IMG/VR virus record: IMGVR_UViG_3300018432_000002
Span: 1-64,000 of that record
Length of the DNA stretch: 64,000 nt
From: a virus
Direction: 5' to 3' (one strand)
Shown here: piece after piece, positions 46,722-64,000 of the stretch
How positions within the stretch are numbered: position 1 is the stretch's first letter
Layout of the letters: each line of letters opens with the position of its first letter
The notes under the pieces: generated by a model
Database searches by the model: none
The model's input: only the letters and a program-made list of their open reading frames with translations
What the model was told of the DNA's origin: nothing
Position numbers and translations under genes: made by a program

Positions 46722-46764
46722 CTCACCGCCCTGAGCTCGCTCCTACGAGTCGCGGGGGTGGACT

Positions 46765-49635: not shown

Positions 49636-49648
49636 ACGGAGGTATCCG

Positions 49649-50624: not shown

Positions 50625-50937
50625 GGCTGTGACCGCCTGGTGCGAGGAGGGCCCGCTCAACGGCAAGCAGGTTACGGTCACCTCACCGGATGGGTTCATC
50701 GCCACCGACCGCGCCGCCGGCAAGGCGTGGATCTACAAGCGCAGCAGCTCAGACCGGTTCACGCTTTGCTTCGATCATGACAACTCGCTGGTCTACCCGC
50801 AGGGCGTGGACACCGGTGAGCGTCGCATCGACTGGGACCGGCTGCCGCTGGCCACCGACCCGATGAACGAGATCAAGCTGGGCGACAGTGCTGAAGCCCT
50901 GTCTGGGGATCCGGTCGACGACGGCTGGGGGCAATGA
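50617..50937 (+). CDS. hypothetical protein
   Basis: Overlapping-coupled 106-aa ORF. Confidence 0.5.
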   Translation: MSEAVTAWCEEGPLNGKQVTVTSPDGFIATDRAAGKAWIYKRSSSDRFTLCFDHDNSLVYPQGVDTGERRIDWDRLPLATDPMNEIKLGDSAEALSGDPVDDGWGQ

Positions 50938-51494: not shown

Positions 51495-52314
51495 CTGGTC
51501 GCTTGTGCCATGCCTGGTAGCGCTGCGGTCCGAGGTCAACACCCTCGCGCCGGGGCGAGACAAAGGCAGCGACGGAGCCGTCGGCGATCTTCGGCACCAG
51601 GCGACGAAGTCAGACCACAACCCGGACTCCCGTGGCTGGGTACACGCTCTGGACCTTGACAAAGACCTTCGCAAGCCGGGCTGGCCGATGGACCGGATCG
51701 TGCAGATCCTTGTCACCCGCTGTCGAGCCGGTCTCGAAGATCGCATCCAGTACATCATCTGGAACGGCCGGATCTGGTCACGCTCGTGGGGCTGGACCGC
51801 CCGCACCTACACCGGACCGAACCCGCACGACAAGCATGCACACGTGTCTGCCCGTGACCTGGTCGCGCTCGAACAGAACACCCGCCCGTGGGGGCTGCTG
51901 GCCGCCGCACCCGCCAAGCAGGAGGACGACGACATGACCACCAAGGCCGAGTTCACGACCTGGCTCAAAGACCCCGATGTCCGCAAAGCCCTCTGCTCCG
52001 CCGTCCTCGGCACCGACGGCGTCCTCGCCGCACCCGGCAAACCCGCACCGGGCAAGAACGCGGACGGCTCCGAGGTCAACACACATTGGGCTGGGGTGTC
52101 GTGGCTCGAACAGATCTACGCCCACGTGCTGGTGCTGCGGCAGTACGCCGGCCTCGAAGCCGCCGAAGTCCCGCCCAGCGCCGCGCAGAACGCCGCCGCG
52201 GTCATCGAAGCCCTCGGCGCAGGCGATCGGACGCCCGTGCAGATCGCTGACGCTCTGCGGGCCGCGCTCGGCACGAAAGCAGCCGACGTGGGGCGCATCC
52301 TCGCCTCCATCTAG
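51487..52314 (+). CDS. endolysin candidate: LAS-type zinc peptidase (M15-like) N-domain + C-terminal domain
   Basis: KSDHNPDSRGWVHALDLD and NPHDKHAHVS (H-x-D...H-x-H arrangement); sits upstream of the holin-like genes. Confidence 0.6.
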   Translation: MASWSLVPCLVALRSEVNTLAPGRDKGSDGAVGDLRHQATKSDHNPDSRGWVHALDLDKDLRKPGWPMDRIVQILVTRCRAGLEDRIQYIIWNGRIWSRSWGWTARTYTGPNPHDKHAHVSARDLVALEQNTRPWGLLAAAPAKQEDDDMTTKAEFTTWLKDPDVRKALCSAVLGTDGVLAAPGKPAPGKNADGSEVNTHWAGVSWLEQIYAHVLVLRQYAGLEAAEVPPSAAQNAAAVIEALGAGDRTPVQIADALRAALGTKAADVGRILASI

Positions 52315-52350
52315 CTCCAGCAGAACACTGCGCCATCACGGGGGACGGCC

Positions 52351-52875
52351 ATGCATGATCCAGGTGAACTCCAGCATGACCTCGACAACCTGCGGCACAG
52401 CCTCGCATCAGTCGGCCGAGACCTGACCGACCTGACCGAGCATCAGCGCCGCTCCACCACCGGCAGGCTGTCGCTGCTGCACATCCACGCCATCACCGCT
52501 GTGCTCGTCGGCGGCGCGGTTATTGCGAACGGGCCGGCCGGCATCGCAACACCTGCGTACGCCGGCATCCGGATAGTGCCGGGCGCCCCGTTCACCGTCG
52601 GTGCCGTCTTGGTCATCCTCGGCCTGGTGCTGGGTGTCGCAACGTGGCGGCGCCACGTCCAGACGGAGATGGTTGCCGCCGCAGGCATCGTGATCTGGTA
52701 TTTGATGTTCGCGACCAGCTTTGCCGGAGCCATGATCGCCTGGCAGATAAATCCGGACGGCCAGAAGCCGTCTTGGCAGGGCATGTTTTCGTACTACGGA
52801 TGGGCGGCACTACTTATCGCCCACCTGCGCATCCTCACCTGGGTGCGCGCCACCCGGGTTCGGGTAAAGAAGTGA
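52351..52875 (+). CDS. holin candidate (4 TM membrane protein)
   Basis: Four hydrophobic segments, basic C-terminus, position after the lysin. Confidence 0.55.
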   Translation: MHDPGELQHDLDNLRHSLASVGRDLTDLTEHQRRSTTGRLSLLHIHAITAVLVGGAVIANGPAGIATPAYAGIRIVPGAPFTVGAVLVILGLVLGVATWRRHVQTEMVAAAGIVIWYLMFATSFAGAMIAWQINPDGQKPSWQGMFSYYGWAALLIAHLRILTWVRATRVRVKK

Positions 52876-53450
52876 CAGCAGCACCAGCGCTGGAAAGCAC
52901 CGTCTGGATTCCAGCGCTGATCGTTCTGGCCGGCACCATCATCACAGCGGGGTTGGGTTTCTTGGGCACAGTGCTGGTGAAGCGGATGTCCCGCTCGAGT
53001 GAGACGGCGACGGCCCGCCGCATGGAGGCGGAGGCCCGCAAGCTCGAGGTGGAGGCGGGGGTGTTGACGGAGCGGGAACGCGACGACGACGCCGACCGGG
53101 ACCTGGCCCGCATGCAGAAAACCCTCGCGTTCGCGTTCGACACGCTGGACCGGCTGACGCAGCAGGTCGCCGCCCAGTCGGCTGCCTACGACCAGCTGGT
53201 GGCACAGGAACGCGCGGACCGGACGGCGCAGTTCGCGGCGCATGTGGAGTCCGCGGACCAGCGGATCAGTGCGTTGCAGGAGCAGGCGGACCGGCGGTTC
53301 GAGTTCATGCGTTCCGAGGTGCAGGAGCTGCGCGAGGAACTCGGGGCGACCCGGACCAGGATCCGCGGGCATAGGCCCTGGGACGAGAAGGTCGCGAAGA
53401 TGGTCCGCGACAACTTGGACCACGAGTTCCCCGACCCACCTGACCTGTAG
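52872..53450 (+). CDS. N-terminally anchored coiled-coil protein (lysis accessory candidate)
   Basis: GTGA coupling; TM WIPALIVLAGTIITAGLGFLGTVLV, then charged coiled coil. Confidence 0.5.
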   Translation: MTAAPALESTVWIPALIVLAGTIITAGLGFLGTVLVKRMSRSSETATARRMEAEARKLEVEAGVLTERERDDDADRDLARMQKTLAFAFDTLDRLTQQVAAQSAAYDQLVAQERADRTAQFAAHVESADQRISALQEQADRRFEFMRSEVQELREELGATRTRIRGHRPWDEKVAKMVRDNLDHEFPDPPDL

Positions 53451-53461: not shown

Positions 53462-53698
53462 GTGGGCATCCAGTTTGAGGAGCATCTGGCTGGCCTGGTC
53501 GGTCCGGGCCATTCGACGTCCAGCCATTACCTGCTGGGCTGGTGCGCGAAGTGCCCCGGCTACTCCCACGTGCAGGAATGCGATGCGTGGCGCAGGTGGG
53601 CGATCAGGAACGTGCCTGAAGTGATGGATCTGATCGGGCCTGGTGTTCGGCTGCCTGCTTCAACTCCTGCCACATCCCTGGTCCGCCCCGGCGCCTGA
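53462..53698 (+). CDS. hypothetical protein (uncertain)
   Basis: GTG start with G-rich RBS. GC3 is high only in the first two thirds; the 3' end overlaps the reverse gene. Confidence 0.35.
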   Translation: MGIQFEEHLAGLVGPGHSTSSHYLLGWCAKCPGYSHVQECDAWRRWAIRNVPEVMDLIGPGVRLPASTPATSLVRPGA

Positions 53699-53903
53699 TC
53701 CATGACGTGACGGCGTCGCAGGCCTGCCGTTCACTGTGCGCCGCCCATGCCTGGTTGCGGCCATGCTCGGCGCGGGCGGCGAACCATGTGCCGTCGATGG
53801 TTTGGCCGAGCCCGATGGCGGCATGGCCGATCTCGCCGGGTTGGCCTCTGATCCACCAGCGGTGAACAACGTGTTCGACGGACCCCAGGTCGATGCGCTG
53901 CAT
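53604..53903 (-). CDS. hypothetical protein
   Basis: High GC3 across the reverse frame; ATG 53903 within ORF 53604..53960. Confidence 0.5.
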   Translation of the reverse strand: MQRIDLGSVEHVVHRWWIRGQPGEIGHAAIGLGQTIDGTWFAARAEHGRNQAWAAHSERQACDAVTSWIRRRGGPGMWQELKQAAEHQARSDPSLQARS

Positions 53904-54085
53904 GCCCGCATTCTGGCGGCGGGGTCTGACATCTTTCCGGCCTAACCTTTCTTTGATCATGGCCGGATGGAACCTTACGGCCGATCCTTTTGATCCACAT
54001 GAAATCCGGCAGCTGAATCTCTCGCCAAAGCCGACCTACTTCAAAACCGCCCTTGCGGCGGCACTCAACCCTGCAAGGAGCACCC

Positions 54086-54457
54086 ATGGACTCGATCGTC
54101 TTTCCCACGTTGCCGACCTACCTGTTCGAGCCGTCGCTGGCCGGCGTCCTCAGCCTCGCGCTGACCGTGATCCTGCCGCTGCTCGCCGCCGTGCTGATGC
54201 GCTCCAACTGGGGCAGCTTCAAGAAGGGGCTCGTGCTTCTGGCGATGGCTGCAGTGAAGGCATTCCTCGAGGCGTGGATCGGCTCCGTCGAATCCGGCGA
54301 GTTCTTCGACTTCGCTCGCACCGCCTACAGCGTCCTCATCAACTTCGGCATCGCGGTGATCTTCTACTTCGGCATCCTCAAGGGATCCGACATCCAGAAG
54401 TCGGCGCTCAACTCCGGCGTCCAGCCCAAGACCATCGACGGTCACGTCGTCAACTAA
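54086..54457 (+). CDS. integral membrane protein (3-4 TM)
   Basis: AAGGAG RBS before ATG 54086; hydrophobic segments LAGVLSLALTVILPLLAAVL, LVLLAMAAV, VLINFGIAVIFYFGIL. Confidence 0.6.
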   Translation: MDSIVFPTLPTYLFEPSLAGVLSLALTVILPLLAAVLMRSNWGSFKKGLVLLAMAAVKAFLEAWIGSVESGEFFDFARTAYSVLINFGIAVIFYFGILKGSDIQKSALNSGVQPKTIDGHVVN

Positions 54458-54472
54458 CCGGAAAGGCTCCCG

Positions 54473-54793
54473 TTGAGCTTCGACAACTGCGCCCAGGCAT
54501 ACGACGCCGGCCAGTCACACATCAAGAAGACCAGCCCGCTGTACGCCAAGCATCTCGACCGCGACCGGGACGGGATCGCCTGCGACAACCCGCCCGAAGG
54601 GTTCGTCGCCAAGCCTGCTGTGACGAAGACCGCGAAGCCGCAGCCGACCGCCACCACCACAGCGCAGGCCGGTGTCGGCACCGCGGACCGGCTGCCGGTG
54701 ACCGGGCCTGGCGAGGTCGGGGGTGTCGCTGCGCTGCTGCTGGTTATCGGCGTTGCTGTTCTTGCGGTGACCCGGCGCCGCCGTCGTTCCTGA
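54473..54793 (+). CDS. Excalibur calcium-binding domain protein with LPXTG cell-wall sorting signal
   Basis: FDNCAQAYDAG...LDRDRDGIACD (Excalibur); LPVTG + hydrophobic stretch + RRRRRS; TTG start with GAAAGG RBS. Confidence 0.75.
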   Translation: MSFDNCAQAYDAGQSHIKKTSPLYAKHLDRDRDGIACDNPPEGFVAKPAVTKTAKPQPTATTTAQAGVGTADRLPVTGPGEVGGVAALLLVIGVAVLAVTRRRRRS

Positions 54794-54863
54794 TCCACCG
54801 CACCACCCATGATCACGCCGGTCGGCGTTTTCGTCCCCAGCGTCCCGCCGACCGGCGTCTAGC

Positions 54864-54907
54864 AGCCCGTCCTCCGCCTCACGCGGAGGACGGGCTCTTT
54901 TTGTTTG
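54864..54907 (+). terminator. rho-independent terminator
   Basis: 14-bp stem AGCCCGTCCTCCGC/GCGGAGGACGGGCT, 5-nt loop, then CTTTTTGTTTG. Confidence 0.85.
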
Positions 54908-55030
54908 TGCGTTTCGGGGCCGCTTGGGCGACCCCTATCTAGCGACTATTCGGAAAGAGGCGATAGCCCTACGTTTGTGTCGTTGCCGAGGAAACAGCTC
55001 GGACCACCACCTAATAGGAGAACCATTCTT

Positions 55031-55606
55031 ATGTCGCTGTACCAGGACGAGACCGCATTCATCGCCGCGAAGACCGCCGAGGCCGAGAAGATCGCTGCCG
55101 GCGCCGCGAAGAAGAAGTCCCGCAAGATCTGGGCGTTCGCCGCCGTCGGCACCGTTTTCGCAGGTGGCGCCGCGTTCGCCGCCGTGCAGCTGTTCGGCTT
55201 CGGCACCCTCGACCAGGGCCCGGCCACCATGAAGAACCTCGCAGTCGCCAGCCCGAAGCTCACCGGGTCGCTGGTTCCCGGCCAGTCTGTCGGCGGTTCG
55301 GTCGACGTCGGCAACGAGAACGACTTCCCCGTCAAGGTCACCGGTGTGATCATCCAGGACTCGAGCCTGCAGGTCAGCGGTGACGGCTGCGACCCGGCCA
55401 GCCTCAGCCTCAACGGCAGCGCGGCCACCTACCCGGGTCAGAACGGTGGACCCGGTCACCAGATCAACCTGACCACCCCGATCACCCTGAACCCGGGCGA
55501 GGGCAAGACCATCACCGTGCAGAACGTGGTGTCGCAGAACGCCGGTGCGACCAAGCTGTGTGGCGTCAAGGCCAACTTCGCGGTCGTCGCGTCCGTGGGA
55601 AACTGA
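55031..55606 (+). CDS. signal-anchored/secreted beta-sandwich protein
   Basis: AGGAGA RBS; TM IWAFAAVGTVFAGGAAFAAVQLF, then a beta-rich domain with a Cys pair. Confidence 0.65.
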   Translation: MSLYQDETAFIAAKTAEAEKIAAGAAKKKSRKIWAFAAVGTVFAGGAAFAAVQLFGFGTLDQGPATMKNLAVASPKLTGSLVPGQSVGGSVDVGNENDFPVKVTGVIIQDSSLQVSGDGCDPASLSLNGSAATYPGQNGGPGHQINLTTPITLNPGEGKTITVQNVVSQNAGATKLCGVKANFAVVASVGN

Positions 55607-55720
55607 CCCGGCCTGCCGCACTTGCTTTAACCGGCGGACGCCCGTCGCTCCTTCTGGGGGCGGCGGGCGTCGCCGTCGTTGTGGCGGACCTACTCCTGTA
55701 CCGAACACCCCGGAAACGGC

Positions 55721-55756
55721 GATGAGCGCCAGTCCCGGGACCTGGACTGGCGCTCA
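55721..55756. other. 14-bp perfect inverted repeat (hairpin/operator candidate)
   Basis: ATGAGCGCCAGTCC-8 nt-GGACTGGCGCTCAT read directly, in the intergenic region upstream of the PadR-like gene. Confidence 0.6.
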
Positions 55757-55860
55757 TCTGTGCCGTTCAAACCATCCACCTGCTACAAGCGTAGGCAGCA
55801 ACCAAGCGAACCGGTGTCGGTCGTGCGGGCGACCCCGACTGGGTGCCTACGGGAGGCCTC

Positions 55861-56256
55861 GTGTCTGAGATCAAGTTGACGCCGTCAACCCAGGCGGTTC
55901 TGCAGGCCATCTGGGGCGGCTACAACTGGGGCGTCGCCATCATCAAAGAGTCCGGGGTGTCCATGACCACCGTCTACGACACCCTCCGGCGCCTACGCAA
56001 GGCAGGCTGGGTGACCGAACAGCTCGAACCCGTCGAACTGATGCACGAACTCGGCCGGCCGCGGCGGCGCATCTACCACCTGTCCCCCACCGCCCTCGAG
56101 GCACTGGGCTGGACTGAGAACGTCGCCCTACCTGCTGGCGTTGCTACGCCGCCGCCCCACATCGATCAGCCAACGGCGGAGCTGGACTTCATCCTCGACG
56201 CTCAAGTCTACGAGACCACCGGCGGCGTTGATCCAGACGGTTCCGCCGGGTCGTAG
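55861..56256 (+). CDS. PadR-like winged-helix transcriptional regulator
   Basis: ...VYDTLRRLRKAGWVTEQ...GRPRRRIYHLSPTALEAL; GGGAGG RBS before GTG 55861. Confidence 0.65.
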   Translation: MSEIKLTPSTQAVLQAIWGGYNWGVAIIKESGVSMTTVYDTLRRLRKAGWVTEQLEPVELMHELGRPRRRIYHLSPTALEALGWTENVALPAGVATPPPHIDQPTAELDFILDAQVYETTGGVDPDGSAGS

Positions 56257-56336: not shown

Positions 56337-57143
56337 TCACCGGACGCCGCCAAGCATGGACGCTGCCGCAAACCCGATCGCGGCCATCAAAGCGACCACC
56401 ACGGTCTCGGTGCGAGATCCGGTGCGGAACCGCAGCCACCTCGGAGCTCCCACCCGGGCCCAGCGGCAGCCACGGATCCGAGCCGGCCAGAGTAGCGGCA
56501 CTCGCGAATAGGTGAGCGCGTCGCCGAGGCTGTGTGCCAGGCATCCCCAGCCGACGGCCAACCCGAGCCACCAGCCGATCTGCTGGTCGGCGACCAGGGC
56601 GACAGCGAGCAGCCCGACGAGGGCGGCGCCGACGGCCGCGGTGAACCGGAAAGCCGTCCTGTTGAGCCGCCGGAACTTGCCCGGCAGGATCAGGTCGCCG
56701 AGCTGGGCGCGAACTTTGGAACTGAGGGCGGTGTGGGCGAGCAGCCACACCGCGAACCCGATCACCGCGAGGGCGAACCCGCGGCCGGCCAGCAGGACGC
56801 CTGCCGTGACGGCGAGACCGGTCGTCAGCGCACCTGCAGCGGTGTGGGTCAACCCGCGGTGCCCGCCCGATTCGGGATCTCGGCCGCAGTGGGTGCAGGA
56901 CACCTGCTGGCTTTGTCGGGCCACCCACACCACCGCTGCCGACAATCCTCGGGTGATCGGGCCGAGCGTGCGTGACACGGTCGAGCCGGGGTGGTCAAGG
57001 TCGGGCAGCAGCGCCAGCCCGGCGGACACTGCGGCACCCATCCAGACGGTGGCCGGTTCGAGGTCGACGCCGCAGGTGGTGAGCACTGCCGAGCCGGCCA
57101 GCCAACCGACCGCCCCGGACAGGGCATGAGATTTCCCCATCAC
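56337..57143 (-). CDS. YdjM-family membrane-bound metal-dependent hydrolase (DUF457)
   Basis: SHALSG...LLPDLDHPGS...HRGLTHT...HSLGDALT motifs and multiple TM segments. Confidence 0.75.
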   Translation of the reverse strand: MMGKSHALSGAVGWLAGSAVLTTCGVDLEPATVWMGAAVSAGLALLPDLDHPGSTVSRTLGPITRGLSAAVVWVARQSQQVSCTHCGRDPESGGHRGLTHTAAGALTTGLAVTAGVLLAGRGFALAVIGFAVWLLAHTALSSKVRAQLGDLILPGKFRRLNRTAFRFTAAVGAALVGLLAVALVADQQIGWWLGLAVGWGCLAHSLGDALTYSRVPLLWPARIRGCRWARVGAPRWLRFRTGSRTETVVVALMAAIGFAAASMLGGVR

Positions 57144-57458: not shown

Positions 57459-59504
57459 TCACGCATCCGCGTCCACCTCGACCAGCACATACGCGCCGTG
57501 CCCGTCACGCTTCACCGCACCGAACTCGTCCATCAGCTCGTCAAGGATCTGATGGACTCGCCGCACCGAATAGCTGGTGGCCTCAGCGATCGGGGTCGGT
57601 GATGTGATGCCCACCTTCACCGCGTCGAGGACTTTGCGATGCCCGTCGTGCATCTGCCGGGCCTGCACCTTCTGCGTCGCCGGATTCCACACCGGGAACT
57701 CCGCCACCGCAGGCAGGTCCCCCAGCCCGGCGGCGCCGTCTGTGCCCCTGGCCGCTGCGAAGATCCGGTCAGTGTCACCACCGATGTAAGTACCGTTGCG
57801 CCGTTCCTTGACTCGGCGCCGGATCTCCTCACGGGCCATCTCCGCGAGTTGCGCGCGCATCAGGTACACCACGCCGGCGGCGTTGCCGGAGCCGGTGTCC
57901 AGCGACCGCCACCGGATCTTCGCGGGCCACTCCTTGCGCTGATCGTTGGTCAGTTCGTACGCCCGGAACGGCGCGTCCCGCCCGCCGGAGTCGCCGGCCA
58001 CGAACCGGCCGTAGCCGGGCAGCTCGGGGAACTGCGACGGGTCGTCGTCGACTTTGAACACCTGCCGGGCGTTCGCGTCCATCGAACGCATCATGATCCC
58101 GTTGCCCATGAGCAGGTTCGAACGGATCATCTCGGCGGCGTTGCCTGCCCCACCGAACGCACCCAGCGTGGACTCCTGCGTCTCGAGGATCTCGGCGACG
58201 CCGACCTTCTGCCCCTCACGGGCGATCTGCATGATGATTTTCTGGAGACCTTCCCACATCTCTGGGTTCTCGGCCTTCATCAGCGGCTTGTGGCACTCCG
58301 AAAGGATCAGCAGGAGACCAGGCCGGTCCTCACGTGGCGTGAACCCGATCAGCTCCTCAAGACCGTTCTCGTCCTGCCGCAACTCCATCACCAGCTGCGC
58401 CGCGGCGAACTGGGTGCAGATCTGCTCGTGGGTCTGCGCACCCCAATCGGAGTACTTCATCAGCGTCGGGCTCGACGAGTTGCCCTGCCCGTCGCCGTAC
58501 CAGACCACCGTCGGATAGTCCTCCGACGCGGCCACACTCATGGCGATGATCTCGATCAGGCGGGTCTTCCCGGCGTTGCTACCGCCTTGGACGAAACCGC
58601 CCTTCATCCGCTGATGCTCGAGGTTGTACACCGTCCACGAGGCGGTGCCCTCACCGTCGACGTACGGGCCGAGCCGCACCTTCCCGTCGACGAACACCGA
58701 CGGACCGGGCCACTGGTGCGAGTCCTTGATCTGAGGTTTCGTCACCACGGTCAGCAGAACCGCAGGCTCCTCGAGAACGGGGTGCCGTTCGGCGATGACG
58801 TCCTGCTCGATGGTCAGGCCCAGCCCGCCGCGGACAAGGATCATCACCGACATAAGGGCGGCGATGGACTGCTTGCCGGGGACGAGGCGCAGCACGTACC
58901 GCCAGCCGGCTTTGACCTGTTCCGGCGATTCGAGCCGCGAACCTGCGAGGGTGCCGTTCGGGCAGCCGAGGTACTTGTCCCAGCGGGCGGTGTACCGGTC
59001 CACGGTCGGCTCAGCCTGGCTTTCCGCGACGGGGGTGGCCGGGGTGCTGTTGGGGATGCGGTGCTTGCGCCACCAGTGCAACGACAGCGCCGACCCGAGA
59101 GCGGTCAGGATGCCGACGGCGTTCCAGGACAGCCCCCACGCCGTGGTGGTGGTCAGCCACGTCGCGGCGACTGCTACGAACGCGAGGCCACGGTGCAGGC
59201 TTTTGCGGTCATCGAGGCGCTTACGCATCTGGTGCGCGGCGACAACGGCGACCACCACGCACACCGCGGCGGTCCCGCCGAGGATCTCCGCGTCATTGGT
59301 GCTCGCGGTCTTCGCCGCGTTCAGGGCGGCCGACGCCAGTACGAGCAGGCCCATGCCGGCGAACGGCGCGACCTGCTTCTGCACGCCACGGGTGTGGGTG
59401 TGGGCGGTCTGCGCGTAAGCCCGGTAGCGGACGGCACGCTGCCGGTACGTCTCGGGAGGCTGCGGCGTCGCCTGAGTCTTCGAGTTGGTCTGCTTGGTCG
59501 GCAT
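57459..59504 (-). CDS. FtsK/SpoIIIE-family DNA translocase (TraB-like)
   Basis: N-terminal TM helices, Walker A GGSNAGKT, Walker B LLLILSECH, C-terminal wHTH-like region. Confidence 0.9.
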   Translation of the reverse strand: MPTKQTNSKTQATPQPPETYRQRAVRYRAYAQTAHTHTRGVQKQVAPFAGMGLLVLASAALNAAKTASTNDAEILGGTAAVCVVVAVVAAHQMRKRLDDRKSLHRGLAFVAVAATWLTTTTAWGLSWNAVGILTALGSALSLHWWRKHRIPNSTPATPVAESQAEPTVDRYTARWDKYLGCPNGTLAGSRLESPEQVKAGWRYVLRLVPGKQSIAALMSVMILVRGGLGLTIEQDVIAERHPVLEEPAVLLTVVTKPQIKDSHQWPGPSVFVDGKVRLGPYVDGEGTASWTVYNLEHQRMKGGFVQGGSNAGKTRLIEIIAMSVAASEDYPTVVWYGDGQGNSSSPTLMKYSDWGAQTHEQICTQFAAAQLVMELRQDENGLEELIGFTPREDRPGLLLILSECHKPLMKAENPEMWEGLQKIIMQIAREGQKVGVAEILETQESTLGAFGGAGNAAEMIRSNLLMGNGIMMRSMDANARQVFKVDDDPSQFPELPGYGRFVAGDSGGRDAPFRAYELTNDQRKEWPAKIRWRSLDTGSGNAAGVVYLMRAQLAEMAREEIRRRVKERRNGTYIGGDTDRIFAAARGTDGAAGLGDLPAVAEFPVWNPATQKVQARQMHDGHRKVLDAVKVGITSPTPIAEATSYSVRRVHQILDELMDEFGAVKRDGHGAYVLVEVDADA

Positions 59505-59583
59505 CGCTGCCTCCCTCCTTCACATGGTGAGGCCCGGCCCTCGGAGGCTCAGGGGGTGAGGGCCGGGCCGGTACAGGGTTGGG

Positions 59584-59913
59584 TTACTCGTTGGTGTTGG
59601 CGTGCTTGTTCGCCGCGTTCGGGCTGGCCGAGTACGCCTCGGCGACGGGCATGTTGTTCTGCCGCACCCCGTCCGCGGTCATCTGCCACCAGTCACCGGC
59701 CGCCTGCGACTGCGCCATGGCCTGCTGCACCAGATCGACGTCGGACTGGCCGACCTCCATCGTGTTCAGCGACCCGGCGAACCCTTCGTTGCCGGCGACC
59801 TGACGGTTCTGGTTGGCGACACCCTCGAGGTAGGCGATCAAACCCCGAACACTGGTGATCTCGTCGTTGGACTGGGTGGCGGGCTGCGTCATCGAGGTCT
59901 CCTCGCTGCTCAT
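59584..59913 (-). CDS. hypothetical helical protein, paralogous to the C-terminus of the upstream gene product
   Basis: ATGA coupling at 59913 (alternative ATG 59892); shared ending V.EAY.A.P.AA.K. Confidence 0.55.
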   Translation of the reverse strand: MSSEETSMTQPATQSNDEITSVRGLIAYLEGVANQNRQVAGNEGFAGSLNTMEVGQSDVDLVQQAMAQSQAAGDWWQMTADGVRQNNMPVAEAYSASPNAANKHANTNE

Positions 59914-61295
59914 TCGGCGGTCTGGTACTGCTTCTCGGCGGCACCCGGCGCGGCACCGTACGCCTCCCGCACACCCTGGTTGTGCAGCTCGATCGCGTCG
60001 GCGGCCGTCTCCCACGCGGCGGCGGCCTTCTCGGACGCCTCCTTCGCGGTGGCCAGGTTGTTCTCGTCGCTGCCGGTGACCGTCATCTTCTGCATGGCGT
60101 GGCCGGCCTGTTCGGCACTGGCGGCGTGGGTGCGGTGGATCGCCGCGACCTGCCGCATGTAGTGGATCGCGGACGGGATACCGGTGACTTCACCGGACAT
60201 GGCTGCGGTCATGTCGTCTCCTCGGGTGATCGTGTCGAGCGGGTTGGCCGGGTAGCCGGGCGCCGGGTCGTAGTTGACGCCGAACAGTTCCTGAACGTGT
60301 TGCGGGTCGACCGGTGCGGTGGCGGTTGCTTCGTCCCAGCAGGCCTGATCGGCGGGGCAGGCGAACGGCGGATGTTGGGTGCCGCACAGGTCGCAGATGC
60401 TGTGGCGCGGCCCTTGGCACAGCCCGGCATGGACTTTCTCCGCCGCGGCTGCGTCGGCCGGGTGCTGCAGGTACTGGAACGTCCGATCACACTTCGGGCA
60501 GTGGAAGCCGAAGTTCGGCGACGGGCCGTTGGCTGGGTTCTTCGGGCAGTCCCGTTCATGCCGGTCGACGCCGACCTTCGCGCTGACCGGATGGGTGGAG
60601 GTGACCGGGTGTCCGCAGAACTGGCAGTTCAGCGTGGTGGTCAGCGACTGCAGCGGCTTCCGGGGCTCCGCGGGAACTGGCTTGCGGTGGGCCTTCGGGC
60701 AGTTGCTGCCCGCTGGGTGCTCCCAGGCGCCTTCGGGCAGCGTGACGCCGCACTCGTCGCACGCAATGACCGGCTCGTCAGGCTTGGGCCGGTCATCCAA
60801 GTCAAGGTCTAGCCCCATCGGACCGTCGACACTGTCGGCCTTGTCGGCCGGCTGCGGTTCTTTCTTCTCCCCCACCGGCCGGACCAGGGCGTTGTCGAGC
60901 AGCCACTGCCATATGGCCCTCTTCTCCGACTTCACCGTCGGCTTCGCGGGCGGCGCCGTGCCCTCGGCGACGGCTTTCGCCTTGTCGGCCATGTACTGCT
61001 CATGCCGGGCTTTGTGGTCGGCGGCGAGGCCTTCCCACAGCGCCCGCCAGCGCTGCCACGCGTAAGCCCACATGCCCGGCTTGGCGACCTTCGCCGACGC
61101 GGGGGCCTTCCCCCGCGCTTTGCGGCCTTCCAGCCACTTCTCGACCAGGCCGTACGAGGCGGGCGGCTTCCCTTGCTTCGCCAGCTCCCGGTCGACGGTT
61201 GCCACCTTCAACCCGGTGGTGATCGCCGCGGACATGAGCAAGACCGCACCGAGGAGCGGATTGGCGAGGAACACCAGCGCCGAGATACCCCACAT
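59910..61295 (-). CDS. membrane-anchored protein with four zinc-ribbon/C2HC-like repeats
   Basis: N-terminal TM hairpin; ACDECG...NCPKAH, NCQFCGH...HERDCP, HCPKCDR...HAGLC, ICDLCG...ACP. Confidence 0.7.
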   Translation of the reverse strand: MWGISALVFLANPLLGAVLLMSAAITTGLKVATVDRELAKQGKPPASYGLVEKWLEGRKARGKAPASAKVAKPGMWAYAWQRWRALWEGLAADHKARHEQYMADKAKAVAEGTAPPAKPTVKSEKRAIWQWLLDNALVRPVGEKKEPQPADKADSVDGPMGLDLDLDDRPKPDEPVIACDECGVTLPEGAWEHPAGSNCPKAHRKPVPAEPRKPLQSLTTTLNCQFCGHPVTSTHPVSAKVGVDRHERDCPKNPANGPSPNFGFHCPKCDRTFQYLQHPADAAAAEKVHAGLCQGPRHSICDLCGTQHPPFACPADQACWDEATATAPVDPQHVQELFGVNYDPAPGYPANPLDTITRGDDMTAAMSGEVTGIPSAIHYMRQVAAIHRTHAASAEQAGHAMQKMTVTGSDENNLATAKEASEKAAAAWETAADAIELHNQGVREAYGAAPGAAEKQYQTAE

Positions 61296-61804
61296 CAGCG
61301 GCCACCCCCGCCCTGTGCTTTCGCCGCAGACTGCTTCGCCAGAACCCGCTTGGCGGTGACAGTCGCGATCAGGATGCAGATGATGCCCAACCCGGACGCG
61401 CCGATGTCACCGATCCAGGCGGCCAACTGACCGCCGACCTTGCCTTGCAGCGCCGTTGACCAGCCCTCAACCCTGTCGGCAAGCTTCGCCGGGTGCGGAC
61501 CGTTGTTGACGATCACCGCGATGATCGGTGCGAGGATCGCGGAGCTGACGGCTCCCTGGTTGGGTGTCATGTCGCCGACCAAGTCGAGGAATGTGACGAC
61601 GAAGCCGACTGCGAGCAGGGCGTGCGGCAGGTAGTCCCACGGCACGATGCCGAGAATGAAGCCGACGGTGTCGCCGATCCACGTGCTTGCGGCGAACGTG
61701 CCGCCGACGATGGCGAGGCCGAAGGACATCCAGCCGAGAATGTAGATCCCGGCTTCCTGCTTCTGCTTGACGCCCTGGCGCTCGGTGAGGAGGTTGCGGC
61801 CCAC
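61295..61804 (-). CDS. polytopic membrane protein (Spd-like candidate)
   Basis: GTG 61804 with AAAGGA RBS after the upstream stop; four hydrophobic segments. Confidence 0.6.
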   Translation of the reverse strand: MGRNLLTERQGVKQKQEAGIYILGWMSFGLAIVGGTFAASTWIGDTVGFILGIVPWDYLPHALLAVGFVVTFLDLVGDMTPNQGAVSSAILAPIIAVIVNNGPHPAKLADRVEGWSTALQGKVGGQLAAWIGDIGASGLGIICILIATVTAKRVLAKQSAAKAQGGGGR

Positions 61805-61818
61805 AGCGGTGGTCCTTT

Positions 61819-62397
61819 CTAGAGGAGGATGTGGCCCGCGATGCGCGCGGCCGGGTAGACGATGTGGTCGACGACCCAGATGCCTGGGCCGGTCAGGGAG
61901 AACACTTTGATGCCGCCAGCCAGGGCGGCGAGGCGCAGCGGGCGCTGCACCAGCCACTCCCGGTAGCGGGAGATGACGGTGTAGGGGATGGCGACGGTGT
62001 GCTGGTAGCCGACACCGGCTTTGCGGAGGATCCCGGCCTGCTGGTGGGTCCACGGCGCGTGGCGGGCGTATACGGCGAGGTCAGTGAGGGCGGGCGGCCG
62101 TTCGGTGAAGATGGCCGGCGGGGTCCAGTAGGCCCGGCTGGCGGCCCGGAACTCTGCAATCCGCGACCGTACGGGGGCCGGGATTGCACTATCTGCGGTT
62201 CCCGGCACATCGCTGACCTGCGAATCTTCACTGCGGGGGGTGTTCTTGGCGGCTGCAGTTTCAGGTTGCAGAGTCGGCTCGGGCACAACGTGCAGGTGGG
62301 CCGAGTCCGGGCGTGACTGACCCGCCGGCCGGGGACGCGGGCTGGGCCGGTACACCCCGGCAGTAGCAGCGGTTTCAGTCACAGCGGACTCCTTCAT
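61819..62397 (-). CDS. hypothetical protein (P/A/S-rich N-terminus)
   Basis: 192-aa ORF co-oriented in the operon. Confidence 0.55.
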   Translation of the reverse strand: MKESAVTETAATAGVYRPSPRPRPAGQSRPDSAHLHVVPEPTLQPETAAAKNTPRSEDSQVSDVPGTADSAIPAPVRSRIAEFRAASRAYWTPPAIFTERPPALTDLAVYARHAPWTHQQAGILRKAGVGYQHTVAIPYTVISRYREWLVQRPLRLAALAGGIKVFSLTGPGIWVVDHIVYPAARIAGHILL

Positions 62398-62413
62398 CAG
62401 ATGTTTCCGCAGG

Positions 62414-62602
62414 TCAGACGCTCGACAGCAGGAAGCCGGCGAAGAACACGGCCAGCAGGATCAACACGAACGCGGTCAGCGCCCCGCCGAGGGTCGGACC
62501 ACCGCGGACAGCGCGGTACCGGCCGTCGATCGTGCGGCCGTCATCGGCGGCGGGCAGGGTGGTCACGTTGGCGGGCCGCTTGCGGGCCAGCTCGCGGGGC
62601 AT
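62414..62602 (-). CDS. small tail-anchored membrane protein
   Basis: ATG 62602; C-terminal TM LGGALTAFVLILLAVFFAGFLL. Confidence 0.45.
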   Translation of the reverse strand: MPRELARKRPANVTTLPAADDGRTIDGRYRAVRGGPTLGGALTAFVLILLAVFFAGFLLSSV

Positions 62603-62607
62603 GGTGG

Positions 62608-62808
62608 TCACAGGACTTCCTTCCGCTGGTAGGCGACGTACTGGTTGACCAGCAAGGCTCCTGCCGCGACGAACCCGTCGAACAGGCCGAAGATGGCGAA
62701 TGACGCGTTGCTGCCGAAGAAGGCGACGATGAGCAAAAGGCACGCCGCGACGATCAGGCCGGCGGCAACACTGCGCAGATCAAAAGGGCCGAAGTGGGTG
62801 GTGGCCAT
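62608..62808 (-). CDS. small 2-TM membrane protein
   Basis: GAGGAG RBS before ATG 62808; two hydrophobic segments. Confidence 0.5.
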   Translation of the reverse strand: MATTHFGPFDLRSVAAGLIVAACLLLIVAFFGSNASFAIFGLFDGFVAAGALLVNQYVAYQRKEVL

Positions 62809-62852
62809 GAGTGCTCCTCGGAGGGGGTTCGGGTGGGTCTCTGGCGTGCTGC

Positions 62853-64000
62853 TCACTGGTTCACCGCGCGGTCTTCGGAGGCGTCCTCCGCGGTGAGGTT
62901 TCGCTGCGCCTCCGTGACGGCCTCCAAGAGCCGGGGTGCCCTCGACCAGCCCACCGGGAGGGTGTCGACGATGGCCTGCTGTGACCATTCGCGGACGTCG
63001 CCGGAGGGCAGGTTTCTGACCGGGTCGGGGGGCGCCTCCAACAGGCGCTGAACTGCTTCTTCGTCGGTGAGGCGGGCACGGTTGGAGGGCTTGAGGTTGG
63101 CCCTCCCGGTGGTGGCCCTCCGCCCGCCGGAGATGTTCGGGATCTTCGCCTCGGCCTTGGCTTTGCGGAGGGCGTCCGTGTGCTCTTTGGCGGTGTCGCG
63201 GAGGCGCTCCTCCAACCCGCCGACCTTGGTGGTCAGAGAGGCCACTTCGGAGGTGCGCTCCTTCAGGTCGGAGGTGGCCTCCGACAGTCGTTCGGTGGCG
63301 GTGTCGAGCTTGCTCTGGAGGTCCCCCAGCGTCCCCTCCGCGGCGGTGAGCCGGGTGGTCGTGGAGGACACCTCCGAGCGGAGGTCCTCAAGCTCGCGGA
63401 GGTGCTCTTCCCGTTCGGCGGAGAGGGTTGCCACGGAGGCGTCGGCCGCCTCGAGGAGGTGCGCGGCGGATGCCAGCTCCGCCCGGTTCTGATCGAGCGC
63501 GGAGGTCGCCTCGGCCAGCCGCGTCTCCAGGTCGGTGATGCGGGAGGCCTGCCCGGCGTTGATGGTGCGCTGCTCGGTGAGCCCGGCGGTCAACTGCCGG
63601 ACCCGGGCGACCGGGTTGACCCGCATCCACCAGCCGGGTGTGTCGACGCTGCGCGCCCACCGCTGCCGCAGCTCCGCGTTGTAGCCCTCCCACGCCTGCT
63701 TGGGGTCGGTGACGTAGTTGTCGATGGACCAGCGGCGGGCGGCGTAGGCACGGAACGGGAACGAGCGGACCCGCTCGCCGGAGAACGTGGCGCCGGTGGC
63801 GTCGACGACGCCTTCTTTGCGCAGCTGCACGTGCTGCATGCGCCGGGTGTGCAGCCCCCACAGCCACGGGGACAGCAGGGACAGCAGCCCGAACGCGAGG
63901 GACGCGGCGGTGAGGCCGAGCCGGTTGTCGTCGGCGGGGTTGGCGAAGTGGGCGTAGTTGATGCCGGCGACGAGCGCGGCGATGACGTAGGAGGCGCGGC
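62853..64000 (-). CDS. membrane + long coiled-coil protein (5' end outside the window; possibly DUF2637-like N-domain)
   Basis: The reading frame stays open upstream of the ORF-track Met (…YAHFANPADDNRLGLTAASLAFGLLSLLSPWLWGLHTRRMQHV…); central heptad-rich region. Confidence 0.65.
   Translation of the reverse strand, partial: RASYVIAALVAGINYAHFANPADDNRLGLTAASLAFGLLSLLSPWLWGLHTRRMQHVQLRKEGVVDATGATFSGERVRSFPFRAYAARRWSIDNYVTDPKQAWEGYNAELRQRWARSVDTPGWWMRVNPVARVRQLTAGLTEQRTINAGQASRITDLETRLAEATSALDQNRAELASAAHLLEAADASVATLSAEREEHLRELEDLRSEVSSTTTRLTAAEGTLGDLQSKLDTATERLSEATSDLKERTSEVASLTTKVGGLEERLRDTAKEHTDALRKAKAEAKIPNISGGRRATTGRANLKPSNRARLTDEEAVQRLLEAPPDPVRNLPSGDVREWSQQAIVDTLPVGWSRAPRLLEAVTEAQRNLTAEDASEDRAVNQ

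What the first reader, a model, noticed from the sequence alone, without database searches (positions are those of the whole stretch)
57459..64000. FtsK/TraB-type DNA translocase operon with Spd-like membrane proteins contiguous with a complete virion module
A minus-strand operon of at least eight genes begins at the window edge. In transcription order it encodes a TM + coiled-coil protein (62853..>64000), two tiny membrane proteins, a P-rich protein, a 4-TM protein, a Zn-ribbon membrane protein and its small paralogue. The last gene is a 681-aa FtsK/SpoIIIE ATPase with N-terminal TM helices, Walker A GGSNAGKT, Walker B LLLILSECH and a C-terminal wHTH. In Streptomyces plasmids and AICEs, a single TraB-type FtsK homologue plus small Spd membrane proteins mediates dsDNA conjugation and intramycelial spread. 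FtsK-like genes are also annotated in some actinophages. So there are two readings. The window may cross the junction between a prophage and a neighbouring integrative conjugative element, with candidate boundary zone 53.6-57.5 kb (strong terminator 54864-54907, palindrome 55721-55756). Or one element may carry both a capsid route and a TraB-type mycelial transfer route. The second reading would be notable.
Basis: partly seen in the sequence, partly recalled or inferred. Interest (0 to 1): 0.65.

Follow-up and report, generated by a model that had tools for sequence, protein, structure and literature searches.

The report
Tailed phage carrying plasmid conjugation operon
The window is part of one closed circular 112-kb phage-like element of a mycelial actinomycete that carries, beside a full set of virion genes, an operon built around a Streptomyces-plasmid-type (Tra/TraB) DNA pump. 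The same DNA may therefore spread both as virus particles and by hypha-to-hypha transfer; this combination has one experimental precedent (pZL12) but is undescribed for this widespread lineage.

Summary
Eight co-oriented minus-strand genes (57459 to beyond 64000; the first gene ends at 64418) end in a 681-aa membrane-anchored FtsK-fold ATPase with a C-terminal wHTH.

Pfam, PHROGs and NCBIfam miss this protein. A family profile aligns to pIJ101 Tra (97.7%, E 1.4e-12), and the AlphaFold model matches TcpA and FtsK motors (E about 1e-14).

The prophage/ICE junction reading is rejected. The window lies on a 112,470-bp contig with an exact 30-bp terminal overlap and an ORF across the join. It holds no host genes and one integrase (a serine recombinase). 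Virion module and tra operon are therefore on one circle.

The same operon lies convergent with tail genes in at least 14 diverged relatives at 31-66% TraB identity: two chromosomal prophages, several IMG/VR viral contigs and the 59-kb circular PhiNon1. It also occurs on phage-free actinomycete plasmids.

An element-specific short DNA motif is enriched in the 3' half of the first operon gene in the five elements tested. It is a candidate clt, unproven.

Transfer function is inferred, not shown. pZL12 is the precedent, so I rate this a new variant of a known kind, interest about 0.6.

The parts
57459..59504 (-). g8: 681-aa Tra/TraB-like dsDNA translocase. It has an N-terminal membrane anchor (2-4 helices, residues ~45-147), an FtsK-type alpha/beta motor (Walker A 307-314; Walker B 397-405 with Ser402 in place of the family's Asp) and a C-terminal wHTH (620-675).
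   Evidence: hhalign to pIJ101 Tra: 97.7%, E 1.4e-12. Foldseek: TcpA and FtsK at E 1e-14 to 1e-13.
59531..59569 (-). GC-rich hairpin (12-bp perfect stem, no T-run) between g7 and g8, just upstream of the g8 ribosome-binding site. Role unknown (mRNA processing or attenuation?).
59584..59892 (-). g7: 102-aa soluble helical protein, paralogue of the C-terminal ~95 residues of g6.
59910..61295 (-). g6: 461-aa protein with an N-terminal TM segment, several Cys-rich zinc-ribbon-like repeats (recurring C-P-K) and a C-terminal g7-like domain. Conserved in the closer relatives.
   Evidence: (weak zinc-ribbon hits).
61295..61804 (-). g5: 169-aa protein with four hydrophobic segments. It co-occurs with g8 in most related loci (invariant D74, D78, P81, N82).
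   Evidence: No similarity to pIJ101 SpdB or KilB.
61819..62382 (-). g4: 187-aa protein with a Pro-rich N-terminus and a conserved C-terminal ~105-residue domain. It is the most widely conserved partner of g8 and is also found on the Saccharothrix plasmid (and, weakly, in PhiNon1).
62414..62602 (-). g3: 62-aa protein with one C-terminal TM segment.
62608..62808 (-). g2: 66-aa protein with two TM segments.
62853..64000 (-). g1: first gene of the operon, cut by the window edge. The full gene is 62853-64418 (521 aa), with ~3 N-terminal TM segments and a long coiled coil. It occupies the position that a DUF2637 protein holds in relatives and in Streptomyces plasmids.
62876..63507 (.). Candidate clt: a cluster of CGGAGG(TG)/(CA)CCTCCG copies inside the 3' half of g1. 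It has 16 hexamer copies against 3.2 expected, on both strands and in all three frames.
   Evidence: It is the outlier among 46 gene chunks of the window (z 6.5, next 3.7). Element-specific motifs sit at the same place in L003, L005, L006, L014 and plasmid L012.
57197..57457 (+). 86-aa ORF convergent with g8. Strong coding signal; conserved next to g8 in L003, L005 and L014.
56337..57143 (-). YdjM-family membrane hydrolase, a conserved neighbour downstream of g8 in several relatives.
53600..56256 (+). Accessory block between the lysis genes and the tra operon: a membrane protein, an Excalibur-domain protein, an intrinsic terminator (54864-54907), a TM protein, a palindrome (55721-55758) and a TrmB/PadR-type wHTH regulator. 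It is internal to the element, not an att junction.
20539..53450 (+). Virion and lysis module of the same circle: HNH endonuclease, TerL (21292-22527), portal (22546-23979), protease/scaffold (27610-29364), major capsid protein (29826-30797), tape measure (40195-43458), tail proteins (44910-49635) and downstream genes.

Best explanation
The window is 57% of a single closed circular element of 112,440 bp: a temperate siphophage-like genome, or phage-plasmid, of a mycelial actinomycete. The nearest named relatives are in Actinoplanes and Micromonospora.

Besides the virion and lysis module it carries a large serine recombinase with a divergent repressor, a D5-type primase next to an iteron array, and the eight-gene tra operon.

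The last operon gene encodes a true relative of the Streptomyces plasmid transfer protein Tra/TraB. It is a membrane-anchored FtsK-type ring ATPase whose C-terminal wHTH should recognise short repeats on the element's own DNA. The seven upstream products, mostly small membrane proteins, would form the envelope or septum-crossing apparatus, as Spd proteins do by analogy.

Inferred mechanism: when the element is a free double-stranded circle, TraB loads at a clt and pumps the unprocessed dsDNA into a neighbouring hypha or across septal cross-walls. My candidate for the clt is the CGGAGG(TG) repeat cluster inside g1. This would give the phage genome a virion-independent route of spread alongside packaging.

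Expression is probably gated by the divergent HTH_3 regulator, through the operator-like palindrome at window coordinates 64440-64467, and/or by the KorA-like GntR/UTRA protein.

Shown: the anatomy, the homology, the fold, the single-circle topology and the conserved linkage to tail genes.

Inferred: DNA transfer itself, the clt, the regulation, and that the whole 112 kb is packaged.
For: One element:
- The rebuilt contig has an exact 30-bp terminal overlap (k-1 of a k=31 assembly), and a 328-codon open frame reads through the join.
- An independent JGI assembly gives 112,563 bp.
- All called genes outside the window are small phage-like ORFs, regulators or a primase, with no housekeeping genes.
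- There is only one integrase, and tblastn with the plasmid queries I had finds no tyrosine integrase and no ParAB.

Tra identity:
- tblastn hits 'transfer protein' genes of Streptomyces plasmids.
- The family profile hits EccC, HerA and FtsK in the PDB.
- The AF2 model has pLDDT 84, and Foldseek matches TcpA and FtsK at E 1e-14 to 1e-13.
- hhalign to pIJ101 Tra gives 97.7%, E 1.4e-12, colinear through the ATPase domain and wHTH. hhalign to pZL12.71c gives 89%.
- Walker A, Glu403 and Gln443 are invariant in 61 homologues.

Plasmid origin of the module: the same TraB-like gene behind a similarly arranged set of upstream genes sits on phage-free plasmids of Nocardiopsis (with NUDIX, GntR/UTRA and ParA), Saccharothrix and Streptomyces; sequence homology beyond g8 was detected only for g4 on the Saccharothrix plasmid.

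Stable linkage to virions:
- The operon is convergent with lysis, tail or tape-measure genes in L003, L004, L005, L006, L014-L019, L024, L027, L030 and L036.
- 16 IMG/VR viral contigs encode a relative of g8.
- PhiNon1 (59,257 bp, circular) was shown by PCR to exist both as a circle and integrated (PMC5431353).

Candidate clt.

No defence-system match.
Against: - No experiment shows transfer, virions or host.
- Pfam, PHROGs, NCBIfam and PADLOC give nothing for seven of the eight proteins; g1 gets only coiled-coil matches.
- The one accessory family tested (g5, 4 TM) has no detectable similarity to pIJ101 SpdB or KilB.
- The Walker B aspartate is Ser in this protein and its four closest relatives, which could mean altered or lower ATPase activity.
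- The candidate clt lies in a coiled-coil coding region, so peptide repeats may explain part of the signal. The recognition helix of the window protein and of L005 are almost identical although their enriched motifs differ.
- This element has no NUDIX (Pif) gene and no ParAB.
- The segment from the integrase to the lysis genes is about 62.5 kb, the size of an ordinary temperate phage. A prophage nested in a plasmid is therefore not excluded for this particular circle.
Confidence: 0.6

Rival explanations
1. Nested elements: a ~62-kb serine-integrase prophage (from the integrase at window -9074 to the lysis genes at about 53.5 kb) has inserted into a ~50-kb TraB-type conjugative plasmid. The circle would then hold two separable elements, and the tra operon would belong to the plasmid only.
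For: - The integrase/repressor, early, virion and lysis order is that of a canonical integrated prophage.
- The rest of the circle holds the primase with iterons, GntR regulators and the tra operon.
- There are two replication modules: a DnaC-like loader in the phage part and the D5 primase outside it.
Against: - The adjacency of the tra operon to the tail end of the virion module recurs in at least 14 loci at 31-66% TraB identity, with different tail-gene families. It is seen in 26-62 kb viral contigs where the operon lies within 2-8 kb of the contig end.
- The adjacency also holds in PhiNon1, which excises and integrates as one 59-kb unit (PMC5431353).
- Seven or more homologue-bearing contigs are 97-112 kb long at 46-66% identity, a conserved size more typical of a packaged genome.
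- The ~100 tiny co-directional ORFs that flank the integrase on both sides look like phage genes.
- No split gene was found at the putative ends.
Confidence: 0.12
2. The operon is part of the phage but does not transfer the phage genome. Alternatives are segregation of the extrachromosomal prophage into spores or compartments (an FtsK/SffA-like role), superinfection exclusion or defence by pumping out or blocking incoming DNA, or mobilisation of host DNA.
For: - FtsK/HerA-fold ATPases serve in segregation and in defence systems; HerA complexes are among the fold hits.
- Related elements carry developmental genes: SsgA in PhiNon1, and SsgA plus WhiB on the Nocardiopsis plasmid.
- Genes at this position of temperate phages are often lysogeny-expressed accessory genes.
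- FtsK-like genes of other Streptomyces phages have been assumed to act in replication (PMC11536984).
Against: - The best sequence relative with a known function is the conjugative Tra of pIJ101, with the same domain order including the wHTH.
- A TraB-like gene in a similar gene arrangement is present on small plasmids that carry the conjugation hallmarks NUDIX and GntR.
- No PADLOC model matches the ATPase or the small proteins.
- pZL12 shows experimentally that a plasmid-phage uses such a tra locus for conjugal transfer (cited in PMC3583192).
Confidence: 0.2
3. One reading: the window crosses a chromosomal junction between a prophage and a neighbouring integrative conjugative element that has its own integrase.
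For: A terminator and a palindrome lie between the lysis genes and the operon. In Micromonospora WMMA1363 the operon abuts host genes and a tRNA-His, with GntR and NUDIX genes as in AICEs.
Against: The contig is a closed circle with no host genes, no second integrase and no tRNA (and the gene lists).
Confidence: 0.03

Closest known systems
pZL12 / phage ZL12 of Streptomyces (GQ919031; Zhong et al. 2010 J Bacteriol 192:3747)
   Same: It is a circular ~90-kb element with a full tailed-virion module and, right beside it, an FtsK/SpoIIIE-like tra gene (pZL12.71c) with adjacent genes and a GntR regulator. Its conjugal transfer needs a major tra gene plus two neighbours (PMC3583192). pZL12.71c is a remote homologue of g8 (hhalign 89%, E 2e-6).
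   Different: - The relationship is only remote; no tblastn hit.
- pZL12 has ParAB and a tyrosine-type integrase/recombinase. This element has a serine recombinase, a D5 primase with iterons, and no ParAB.
- Here the operon has eight genes in a different order and lies at the tail end of the virion module.
- Relatives of this element also occur as chromosomal prophages.
- I could not read the primary paper, so details of its biology are from citing papers and my own knowledge.
PhiNon1 of Nonomuraea gerenzanensis (NZ_LT559120.1; PMC5431353)
   Same: It is a 59-kb self-replicating 'plasmid-phage' that is both circular and integrated at a tRNA-Val. It carries a similar gene arrangement (DUF2637 protein, small proteins, a 396-aa protein, a 654-aa TraB-like ATPase; only g8 and, weakly, g4 match by sequence) convergent with endolysin and tail genes, plus a PP2C gene as in this element.
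   Different: The TraB-like protein is only 23% identical. The element is half the size. The paper does not mention a TraB or tra function.
Tra (KilA) with SpdA/SpdB/KilB and KorA of pIJ101, and TraB with Spd proteins of pSVH1 (PMC4447253)
   Same: The domain order is the same: membrane anchor, FtsK-type ATPase, C-terminal wHTH. hhalign to pIJ101 Tra gives 97.7%. The gene is co-operonic with small membrane proteins. A GntR-type regulator resembling KorA is encoded on the element.
   Different: - Identity to Tra is about 21%, and Pfam FtsK_SpoIIIE does not score g8 although it does score pIJ101 Tra.
- No homology of the tested g5 family to SpdB or KilB.
- The regulator next to the operon is HTH_3, not GntR.
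- The carrier is a tailed phage genome, not a small plasmid.
AICEs such as pSAM2 and SLP1 (PMC2440964, PMC3218068)
   Same: They have an integrase, an FtsK-like Tra, small Spd-like membrane proteins and GntR regulation. Relatives of the operon sit next to NUDIX (Pif-like) and GntR genes at a tRNA.
   Different: AICEs are 9-24 kb and have no virion genes. This element has no NUDIX gene and no RepSA/RepAM-type Rep recognised.
TcpA of pCW3 (Clostridium perfringens) and the FtsK motor domain
   Same: These are the best structural matches to the g8 model (E 1e-14 to 1e-13, target TM-score 0.63-0.72).
   Different: Sequence identity is 10-14%. TcpA works with a relaxase-type system.

Membership tests
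Actinomycete Tra/TraB conjugative dsDNA translocases (pIJ101 Tra, pSVH1 TraB) | FtsK/HerA-type P-loop motor with Walker A and Walker B | tested here: met
   Profile against the PDB hits EccC at E 4e-5 and HerA/FtsK. The AF2 model against the PDB matches TcpA and FtsK at E 1e-14. Walker A G307/G312/K313 and Glu403 are invariant. The Walker B Asp is Ser402 in this clade.
Actinomycete Tra/TraB conjugative dsDNA translocases (pIJ101 Tra, pSVH1 TraB) | Sequence homology to an experimentally characterised Tra over the motor and the C-terminus | tested here: met
   hhalign of the 61-sequence profile against pIJ101 Tra: 97.7%, E 1.4e-12, 415 columns, residues 174-677 against 201-642.
Actinomycete Tra/TraB conjugative dsDNA translocases (pIJ101 Tra, pSVH1 TraB) | N-terminal membrane association | tested here: met
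   Four long helices at residues 20-147 in the model. Two of them pass a Kyte-Doolittle cut-off of 1.5 (residues 45-64 and 70-93). This is prediction only.
Actinomycete Tra/TraB conjugative dsDNA translocases (pIJ101 Tra, pSVH1 TraB) | C-terminal winged helix-turn-helix for sequence-specific DNA recognition | tested here: met
   Residues 620-675 fold as H-H-H-E-E with pLDDT above 90. There are weak profile hits to ArsR/MarR-type wHTH proteins. The region aligns to the MarR_2-positive C-terminus of pIJ101 Tra.
Actinomycete Tra/TraB conjugative dsDNA translocases (pIJ101 Tra, pSVH1 TraB) | A cis-acting clt made of short (about 8-bp) repeats recognised by the wHTH | tested here: inconclusive
   No non-coding repeat cluster lies near g8. 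A significant element-specific motif cluster lies in the 3' half of g1 here and in four relatives (L003, L005, L006, L012); L014 shows a 6-7-mer enrichment in the matching region. It sits in a coiled-coil coding region, and binding is untested.
Actinomycete Tra/TraB conjugative dsDNA translocases (pIJ101 Tra, pSVH1 TraB) | Hexameric pore, ATP-driven dsDNA translocation, peptidoglycan binding, pock formation and transfer | not testable with these tools
   These need biochemistry and mating assays.
Spd (spread) proteins of Streptomyces plasmids | Small membrane proteins co-transcribed with tra | tested here: met
   g1, g2, g3, g5 and g6 have hydrophobic segments and are co-oriented with overlapping or short spacers.
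Spd (spread) proteins of Streptomyces plasmids | Sequence homology to a named Spd protein | tested here: not met
   The g5-family profile against pIJ101 SpdB and KilB gives probability 0.1%. tblastn of g1-g7 finds no hit in Streptomyces plasmid L012. The Spd families themselves have no Pfam model.
Phage-plasmid / plasmid-phage (pZL12 type) | A complete tailed-virion module and a plasmid-type transfer locus on one replicon | tested here: met
   Virion genes, the tra operon, and circular closure without host DNA.
Phage-plasmid / plasmid-phage (pZL12 type) | Plasmid maintenance functions (replication initiator with iterons; partition) | tested here: inconclusive
   A D5_N/DUF5906 primase is followed by about 8-10 ATTGCCACC(C) iterons. 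No ParA or ParB was found. A serine integrase is present, so the lysogenic state may be integrated.
Phage-plasmid / plasmid-phage (pZL12 type) | Infectious virions and stable extrachromosomal lysogeny | not testable with these tools
   The source is a metagenome or SRA assembly only.
AICE (pSAM2/SLP1 type) | Int + Rep + FtsK-like Tra + NUDIX Pif + GntR Kor in a 9-24 kb element without virion genes | tested here: not met
   The element is 112 kb with a virion module. tblastn finds no NUDIX gene. GntR genes and a serine integrase are present.
Type VII secretion EccC/EssC ATPases | Two to three tandem FtsK-like ATPase domains, no DNA-binding domain | tested here: not met
   The model has a single ATPase domain plus a wHTH.
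Known anti-phage defence systems (PADLOC) | A match of any operon protein to a defence-system model | tested here: not met
   No hits except coiled-coil noise for g1.

The most novel reading that the evidence does not exclude
A widespread, undescribed lineage of tailed temperate phages and phage-plasmids of mycelial actinomycetes keeps a plasmid-derived TraB machine as a core accessory module. The lineage spans Micromonosporaceae and Streptosporangiales, with elements from about 40 kb up to a conserved class of about 100-112 kb.

These phages would use the machine to move their own double-stranded genome between hyphae and across septa without virions. The clt would be written into the coding sequence of the first operon gene. 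They would be true phage-AICE hybrids with two transmission routes.
Probability: 0.4. Interest if true: 0.8.

Novelty: new variant of a known kind. Interest (0 to 1): 0.6.

Why it matters
Phages and conjugative elements are usually treated as separate vehicles of gene flow. In filamentous actinomycetes a virion reaches one compartment, whereas TraB/Spd machines spread DNA through the mycelium.

A phage lineage that stably keeps such a machine would change several things:
- how lysogeny, plaque and pock formation and host range are understood in these antibiotic-producing bacteria;
- what explains why pZL12 was not a curiosity;
- what large-capacity transfer tools are available for genera that are hard to manipulate genetically, such as Micromonospora, Actinoplanes, Salinispora and Nonomuraea.

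The work also defines a large TraB-like protein family that current domain libraries miss: 437 clusters (50%-identity representatives) at E<=1e-30 and 1,782 at E<=1e-3. Surveys of conjugative elements and phage-plasmids therefore probably under-count such hybrids.

Tried and rejected
- Pfam, PHROGs and NCBIfam on the operon proteins gave nothing for g2-g8 and only coiled-coil noise for g1. PADLOC gave the same.
- tblastn of g8 against 50,697 phage records found no match, so it is not a common actinophage gene.
- Single-sequence scans of genomes and IMG/VR for close relatives found none. The profile was needed.
- phmmer of g8 against the PDB gave nothing meaningful.
- No att direct repeats were sought. 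The question became moot once the contig closed into a circle. No tRNA lies in the element.
- Exact 7-9-mer cluster scans near g8 found only coding repeats: the C-P-K motif of g6 and the g1 cluster.
- Co-variation of the wHTH recognition helix with the enriched motif is not supported. The window protein and L005 share the helix but not the motif.
- The g5-family profile against pIJ101 SpdB and KilB shows no similarity.
- PHROG scans of ten larger proteins from the non-virion half matched only the primase and an AcrVA2-like protein, which does not discriminate phage from plasmid.
- tblastn for a tyrosine integrase, ParA/ParB, NUDIX and DnaB in the circle found none.
- The pZL12 primary paper (PMC2897331) is not held. 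pSVH1 is not in the plasmid collection under the accession I tried.
- One look-up of a window protein failed because the window differs from the Logan contig by one SNP at 11050.

Full report
**Observation.** The window is about 67% G+C. A third-position G+C frame plot, an ORF list and the gene calls stored with the source contig agree on eight co-oriented minus-strand genes:
- g8: 57459-59504, 681 aa
- g7: 59584-59892, 102 aa
- g6: 59910-61295, 461 aa
- g5: 61295-61804, 169 aa
- g4: 61819-62382, 187 aa
- g3: 62414-62602, 62 aa
- g2: 62608-62808, 66 aa
- g1: 62853-64418, 521 aa, cut by the window edge

Hydrophobicity gives about 3 TM segments plus a coiled coil for g1, 2 TM for g2, 1 for g3, 4 for g5 and an N-terminal TM for g6. 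g7 is a paralogue of the g6 C-terminus. The virion module is real: TerL, Mu-type portal, protease/scaffold, major capsid protein, tape measure and tail proteins. The portal is 39% identical to portals of Gordonia phages.

**What g8 is.** No curated library recognises it, and phmmer against the PDB gives nothing meaningful. tblastn finds 22-29% identical genes on actinomycete plasmids. These are annotated 'transfer protein' (Streptomyces), 'type IV secretory system conjugative DNA transfer family protein' (Nocardiopsis) or, because of the wHTH, 'sigma-70'.

A database search gave 103 full-length homologues, the named ones all from Micromonosporaceae. An exhaustive profile search gave 437 representative clusters at E<=1e-30 and 1,782 at E<=1e-3.

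A 61-sequence profile hits EccC, HerA and FtsK chains. The AlphaFold2 model (pLDDT 83.9) matches the conjugation coupling protein TcpA and the FtsK motor at E 1e-14 to 1e-13. It also matches phage 'FtsK' proteins in BFVD.

Most directly, the profile aligns to the archetypal transfer protein Tra of pIJ101 with 97.7% probability (E 1.4e-12). The alignment covers 415 columns, colinear through the ATPase domain and the C-terminal wHTH. pIJ101 Tra itself carries the Pfam FtsK_SpoIIIE and MarR_2 domains. The tra gene of the plasmid-phage pZL12 and a Streptomyces plasmid 'transfer protein' also escape Pfam, so a Pfam-negative result says little.

Walker A, Glu403 and Gln443 are invariant. The Walker B Asp is Ser in this protein and its four closest relatives.

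**One element or two.** Exact look-ups placed the window on Logan contig SRR6958552_25768 (112,470 bp; window coordinate = record coordinate - 24,930). I rebuilt the whole contig from six loci. It differs from the window by one base.

Its first and last 30 bases are identical, which is what a circle gives in a k=31 assembly (that k is from my own knowledge of Logan). A 328-codon open frame reads through the join. A separate JGI assembly holds the same proteins on a 112,563-bp contig.

Outside the window the circle holds about 100 small tightly packed ORFs without Pfam hits, plus:
- a D5_N/DUF5906 primase followed by about 8-10 ATTGCCACC(C) iterons;
- a short GntR protein, a large serine recombinase and a divergent HTH repressor;
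- an HTH_3 gene divergent from g1, an AcrVA2-like protein, PP2C, and GntR/UTRA and HTH_31/DUF5753 regulators.

There are no housekeeping genes and no tRNA. tblastn with the queries I had finds no second integrase and no ParAB, NUDIX or DnaB. The virion module and the tra operon are therefore on one closed replicon. The proposed boundary zone at 53.6-57.5 kb is internal.

**Is the linkage accidental?** The same gene set (g4, g5, usually g6/g7, and g8) lies convergent with lysis and tail genes in:
- an Actinoplanes chromosome (L003);
- a Micromonospora chromosome (L004), where it abuts a tRNA-His and host genes and is preceded by GntR and NUDIX genes;
- two ~110-kb metagenome contigs (L005, L006).

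A profile scan found 16 IMG/VR viral contigs and 10 genome loci from Micromonospora, Salinispora, Planosporangium, Actinomadura and Actinoallomurus. g4 and g5 accompany g8 in nearly all of them. Tape-measure, minor-tail or other phage-family (PHROG) genes follow within 4-8 kb in the loci I checked.

PhiNon1 of Nonomuraea is a complete 59,257-bp circular record. It is described as a self-replicating plasmid-phage that is also found integrated at a tRNA-Val (PMC5431353). It has a DUF2637 protein, small proteins, a 396-aa protein and a 654-aa TraB-like protein, convergent with its endolysin and tail genes.

Conversely, a TraB-like gene preceded by a similarly arranged set of genes sits on plasmids without phage genes. 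These are a 29-kb Nocardiopsis plasmid with NUDIX, GntR/UTRA, ParA and DnaB, an 84-kb Saccharothrix plasmid and a 26-kb Streptomyces plasmid with a DUF2637 protein. Only g8, and g4 on the Saccharothrix plasmid, match by sequence.

The module is thus a plasmid-type transfer module that a phage lineage has kept over long divergence (31-66% TraB identity).

This argues against the remaining structural rival, a 62-kb prophage nested in a 50-kb plasmid. I cannot exclude that rival for this one circle.

**Candidate clt.** Streptomyces Tra/TraB proteins act on a clt made of short repeats. pJV1, for example, has nine 9-bp repeats (PMC3583192). I found no such cluster in non-coding DNA.

Allowing one mismatch, the strongest 8-mer cluster in 53-66 kb is CGGAGGTG/CACCTCCG inside the 3' half of g1. 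Against codon-shuffled versions of that segment there are 17 copies against 10.2 +/- 1.1, and CGGAGG occurs 16 times against 3.2 expected. Among 46 equal-sized gene chunks of the window this one is the outlier (z 6.5; next 3.7; the tape-measure gene is unremarkable).

The copies lie on both strands and in all three frames. The same region of the first operon gene carries an equally strong but different motif in relatives:
- TGACGC(A) in L003
- CGGTGAG in L005
- CGGAGC(A) in L006
- CGTGAAC in the Streptomyces plasmid L012

That pattern is what a plasmid-specific clt would look like. However, it lies in a coiled-coil coding region. In L006 most copies share one frame. And the wHTH recognition helices of the window protein and of L005 are nearly identical although their motifs differ. 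I treat it as a lead.

**Accessory proteins and regulation.** The g5 family shows no similarity to pIJ101 SpdB or KilB. 'Spd-like' is therefore an analogy of position and membrane character, not membership.

A 70-bp spacer between g1 and the divergent HTH_3 gene holds TTGTCGAT-N9-ATCGACAA, a plausible operator. The 267-aa GntR/UTRA protein resembles pIJ101 KorA (26% over 240 aa). A GC-rich hairpin precedes g8.

**Comparison with what is known.** pZL12 (phage ZL12, GQ919031) is a 90-kb circular Streptomyces plasmid-phage. Its FtsK/SpoIIIE-like gene pZL12.71c, with two neighbours and a GntR gene, lies beside the virion module. [quoted passage not shown]

So the idea of 'one element, capsid route plus Tra route' is not new. 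The new points are:
- this distinct and apparently widespread lineage;
- its presence in integrated prophages as well as large circles;
- the conserved eight-gene architecture shared with phage-free plasmids;
- the unannotated TraB-like family;
- the possible clt inside a gene.

Searches of the held literature for TraB or conjugation in prophages of these genera, or for conjugative phage-plasmids in actinomycetes, found no description.

**Verdict.** The second reading is supported at the level of genome structure (about 0.85). The transfer function is inferred (overall 0.6). Novelty: new variant of a known kind. Interest: 0.6.

Noticed in passing
L011:5328-5615 (record coordinates; window coordinate about -19600, outside the window): An array of about 8-10 ATTGCCACC(C) iterons in both orientations lies directly downstream of a 507-aa D5_N/DUF5906 primase gene. 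It is probably the replication origin of the element. Analogous iterons (GGGAACAGGT, 5-6 copies) sit next to an AAA_25 gene in the Actinoplanes relative (L003:3488-3621).
   Followed up: partly
L010 end / L011 start (record 112441-112470 equals record 1-30): The source contig has an exact 30-bp terminal overlap, and a 328-codon open frame (no family match) reads across the join. The element is a closed 112,440-bp circle or a circularly permuted genome. Several homologue-bearing contigs from other samples are 97-112 kb long.
   Followed up: partly
window 58297-58299 (codon for residue 402 of the 681-aa protein): The Walker B aspartate, present in 56 of 61 homologues, is serine in this protein and its four closest relatives. 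The following glutamate is invariant.
   Followed up: partly
L001:6829-6856 (window coordinates 64440-64467, just beyond the window): An operator-like inverted repeat, TTGTCGAT-N9-ATCGACAA, lies in the unusually A+T-rich 70-bp spacer between the first tra-operon gene and a divergent HTH_3 regulator gene.
   Followed up: no
window 23995-26325: A 776-aa protein directly after the portal gene has a C-terminal hit to the PI3/PI4-kinase catalytic domain (Pfam E 1e-7, above the gathering score). That is an odd domain for a head-module protein.
   Followed up: no
window 27610-29364: The 584-aa head maturation protease/scaffold protein carries an inserted domain resembling 2'-5' RNA ligase / 2H phosphoesterase (residues ~175-350).
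   Followed up: no
window 17625-19070: A 481-aa ORF upstream of the packaging genes has a weak polysaccharide-deacetylase hit just below the Pfam cut-off and unusually low first-position G+C (0.57).
   Followed up: no
window 50952-51021: The only nucleotide-level match of 45-64 kb to any deposited phage is 70 nt at 88.6% identity to Gordonia phage Ruthy. It lies inside a DnaQ/Rv2179c-like exonuclease gene (50934-51494).
   Followed up: no
L003:19460-19550: ARAGORN predicts a tRNA with anticodon CTA (reported as tRNA-Pyl, that is, an amber-reading tRNA) among the lysis and tail genes of the related Actinoplanes prophage.
   Followed up: no
window 10233-11270 and 20539-21279: A GIY-YIG nuclease gene lies in the early region, and an HNH endonuclease gene lies immediately upstream of TerL. 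A DnaC/IstB-like helicase loader is at 12223-12966.
   Followed up: no
window 11050: There is a single-base difference (T in the window, G in the Logan contig) between two assemblies of the same element. It blocked an exact-protein look-up.
   Followed up: yes
L004:12789-13028: A dense tandem repeat (GGGACCAGCTC-like, 14-15 copies) lies inside a 419-aa gene just downstream of the TraB-like gene of the Micromonospora WMMA1363 prophage. It is probably a collagen-like or Pro/Thr-rich repeat protein.
   Followed up: no
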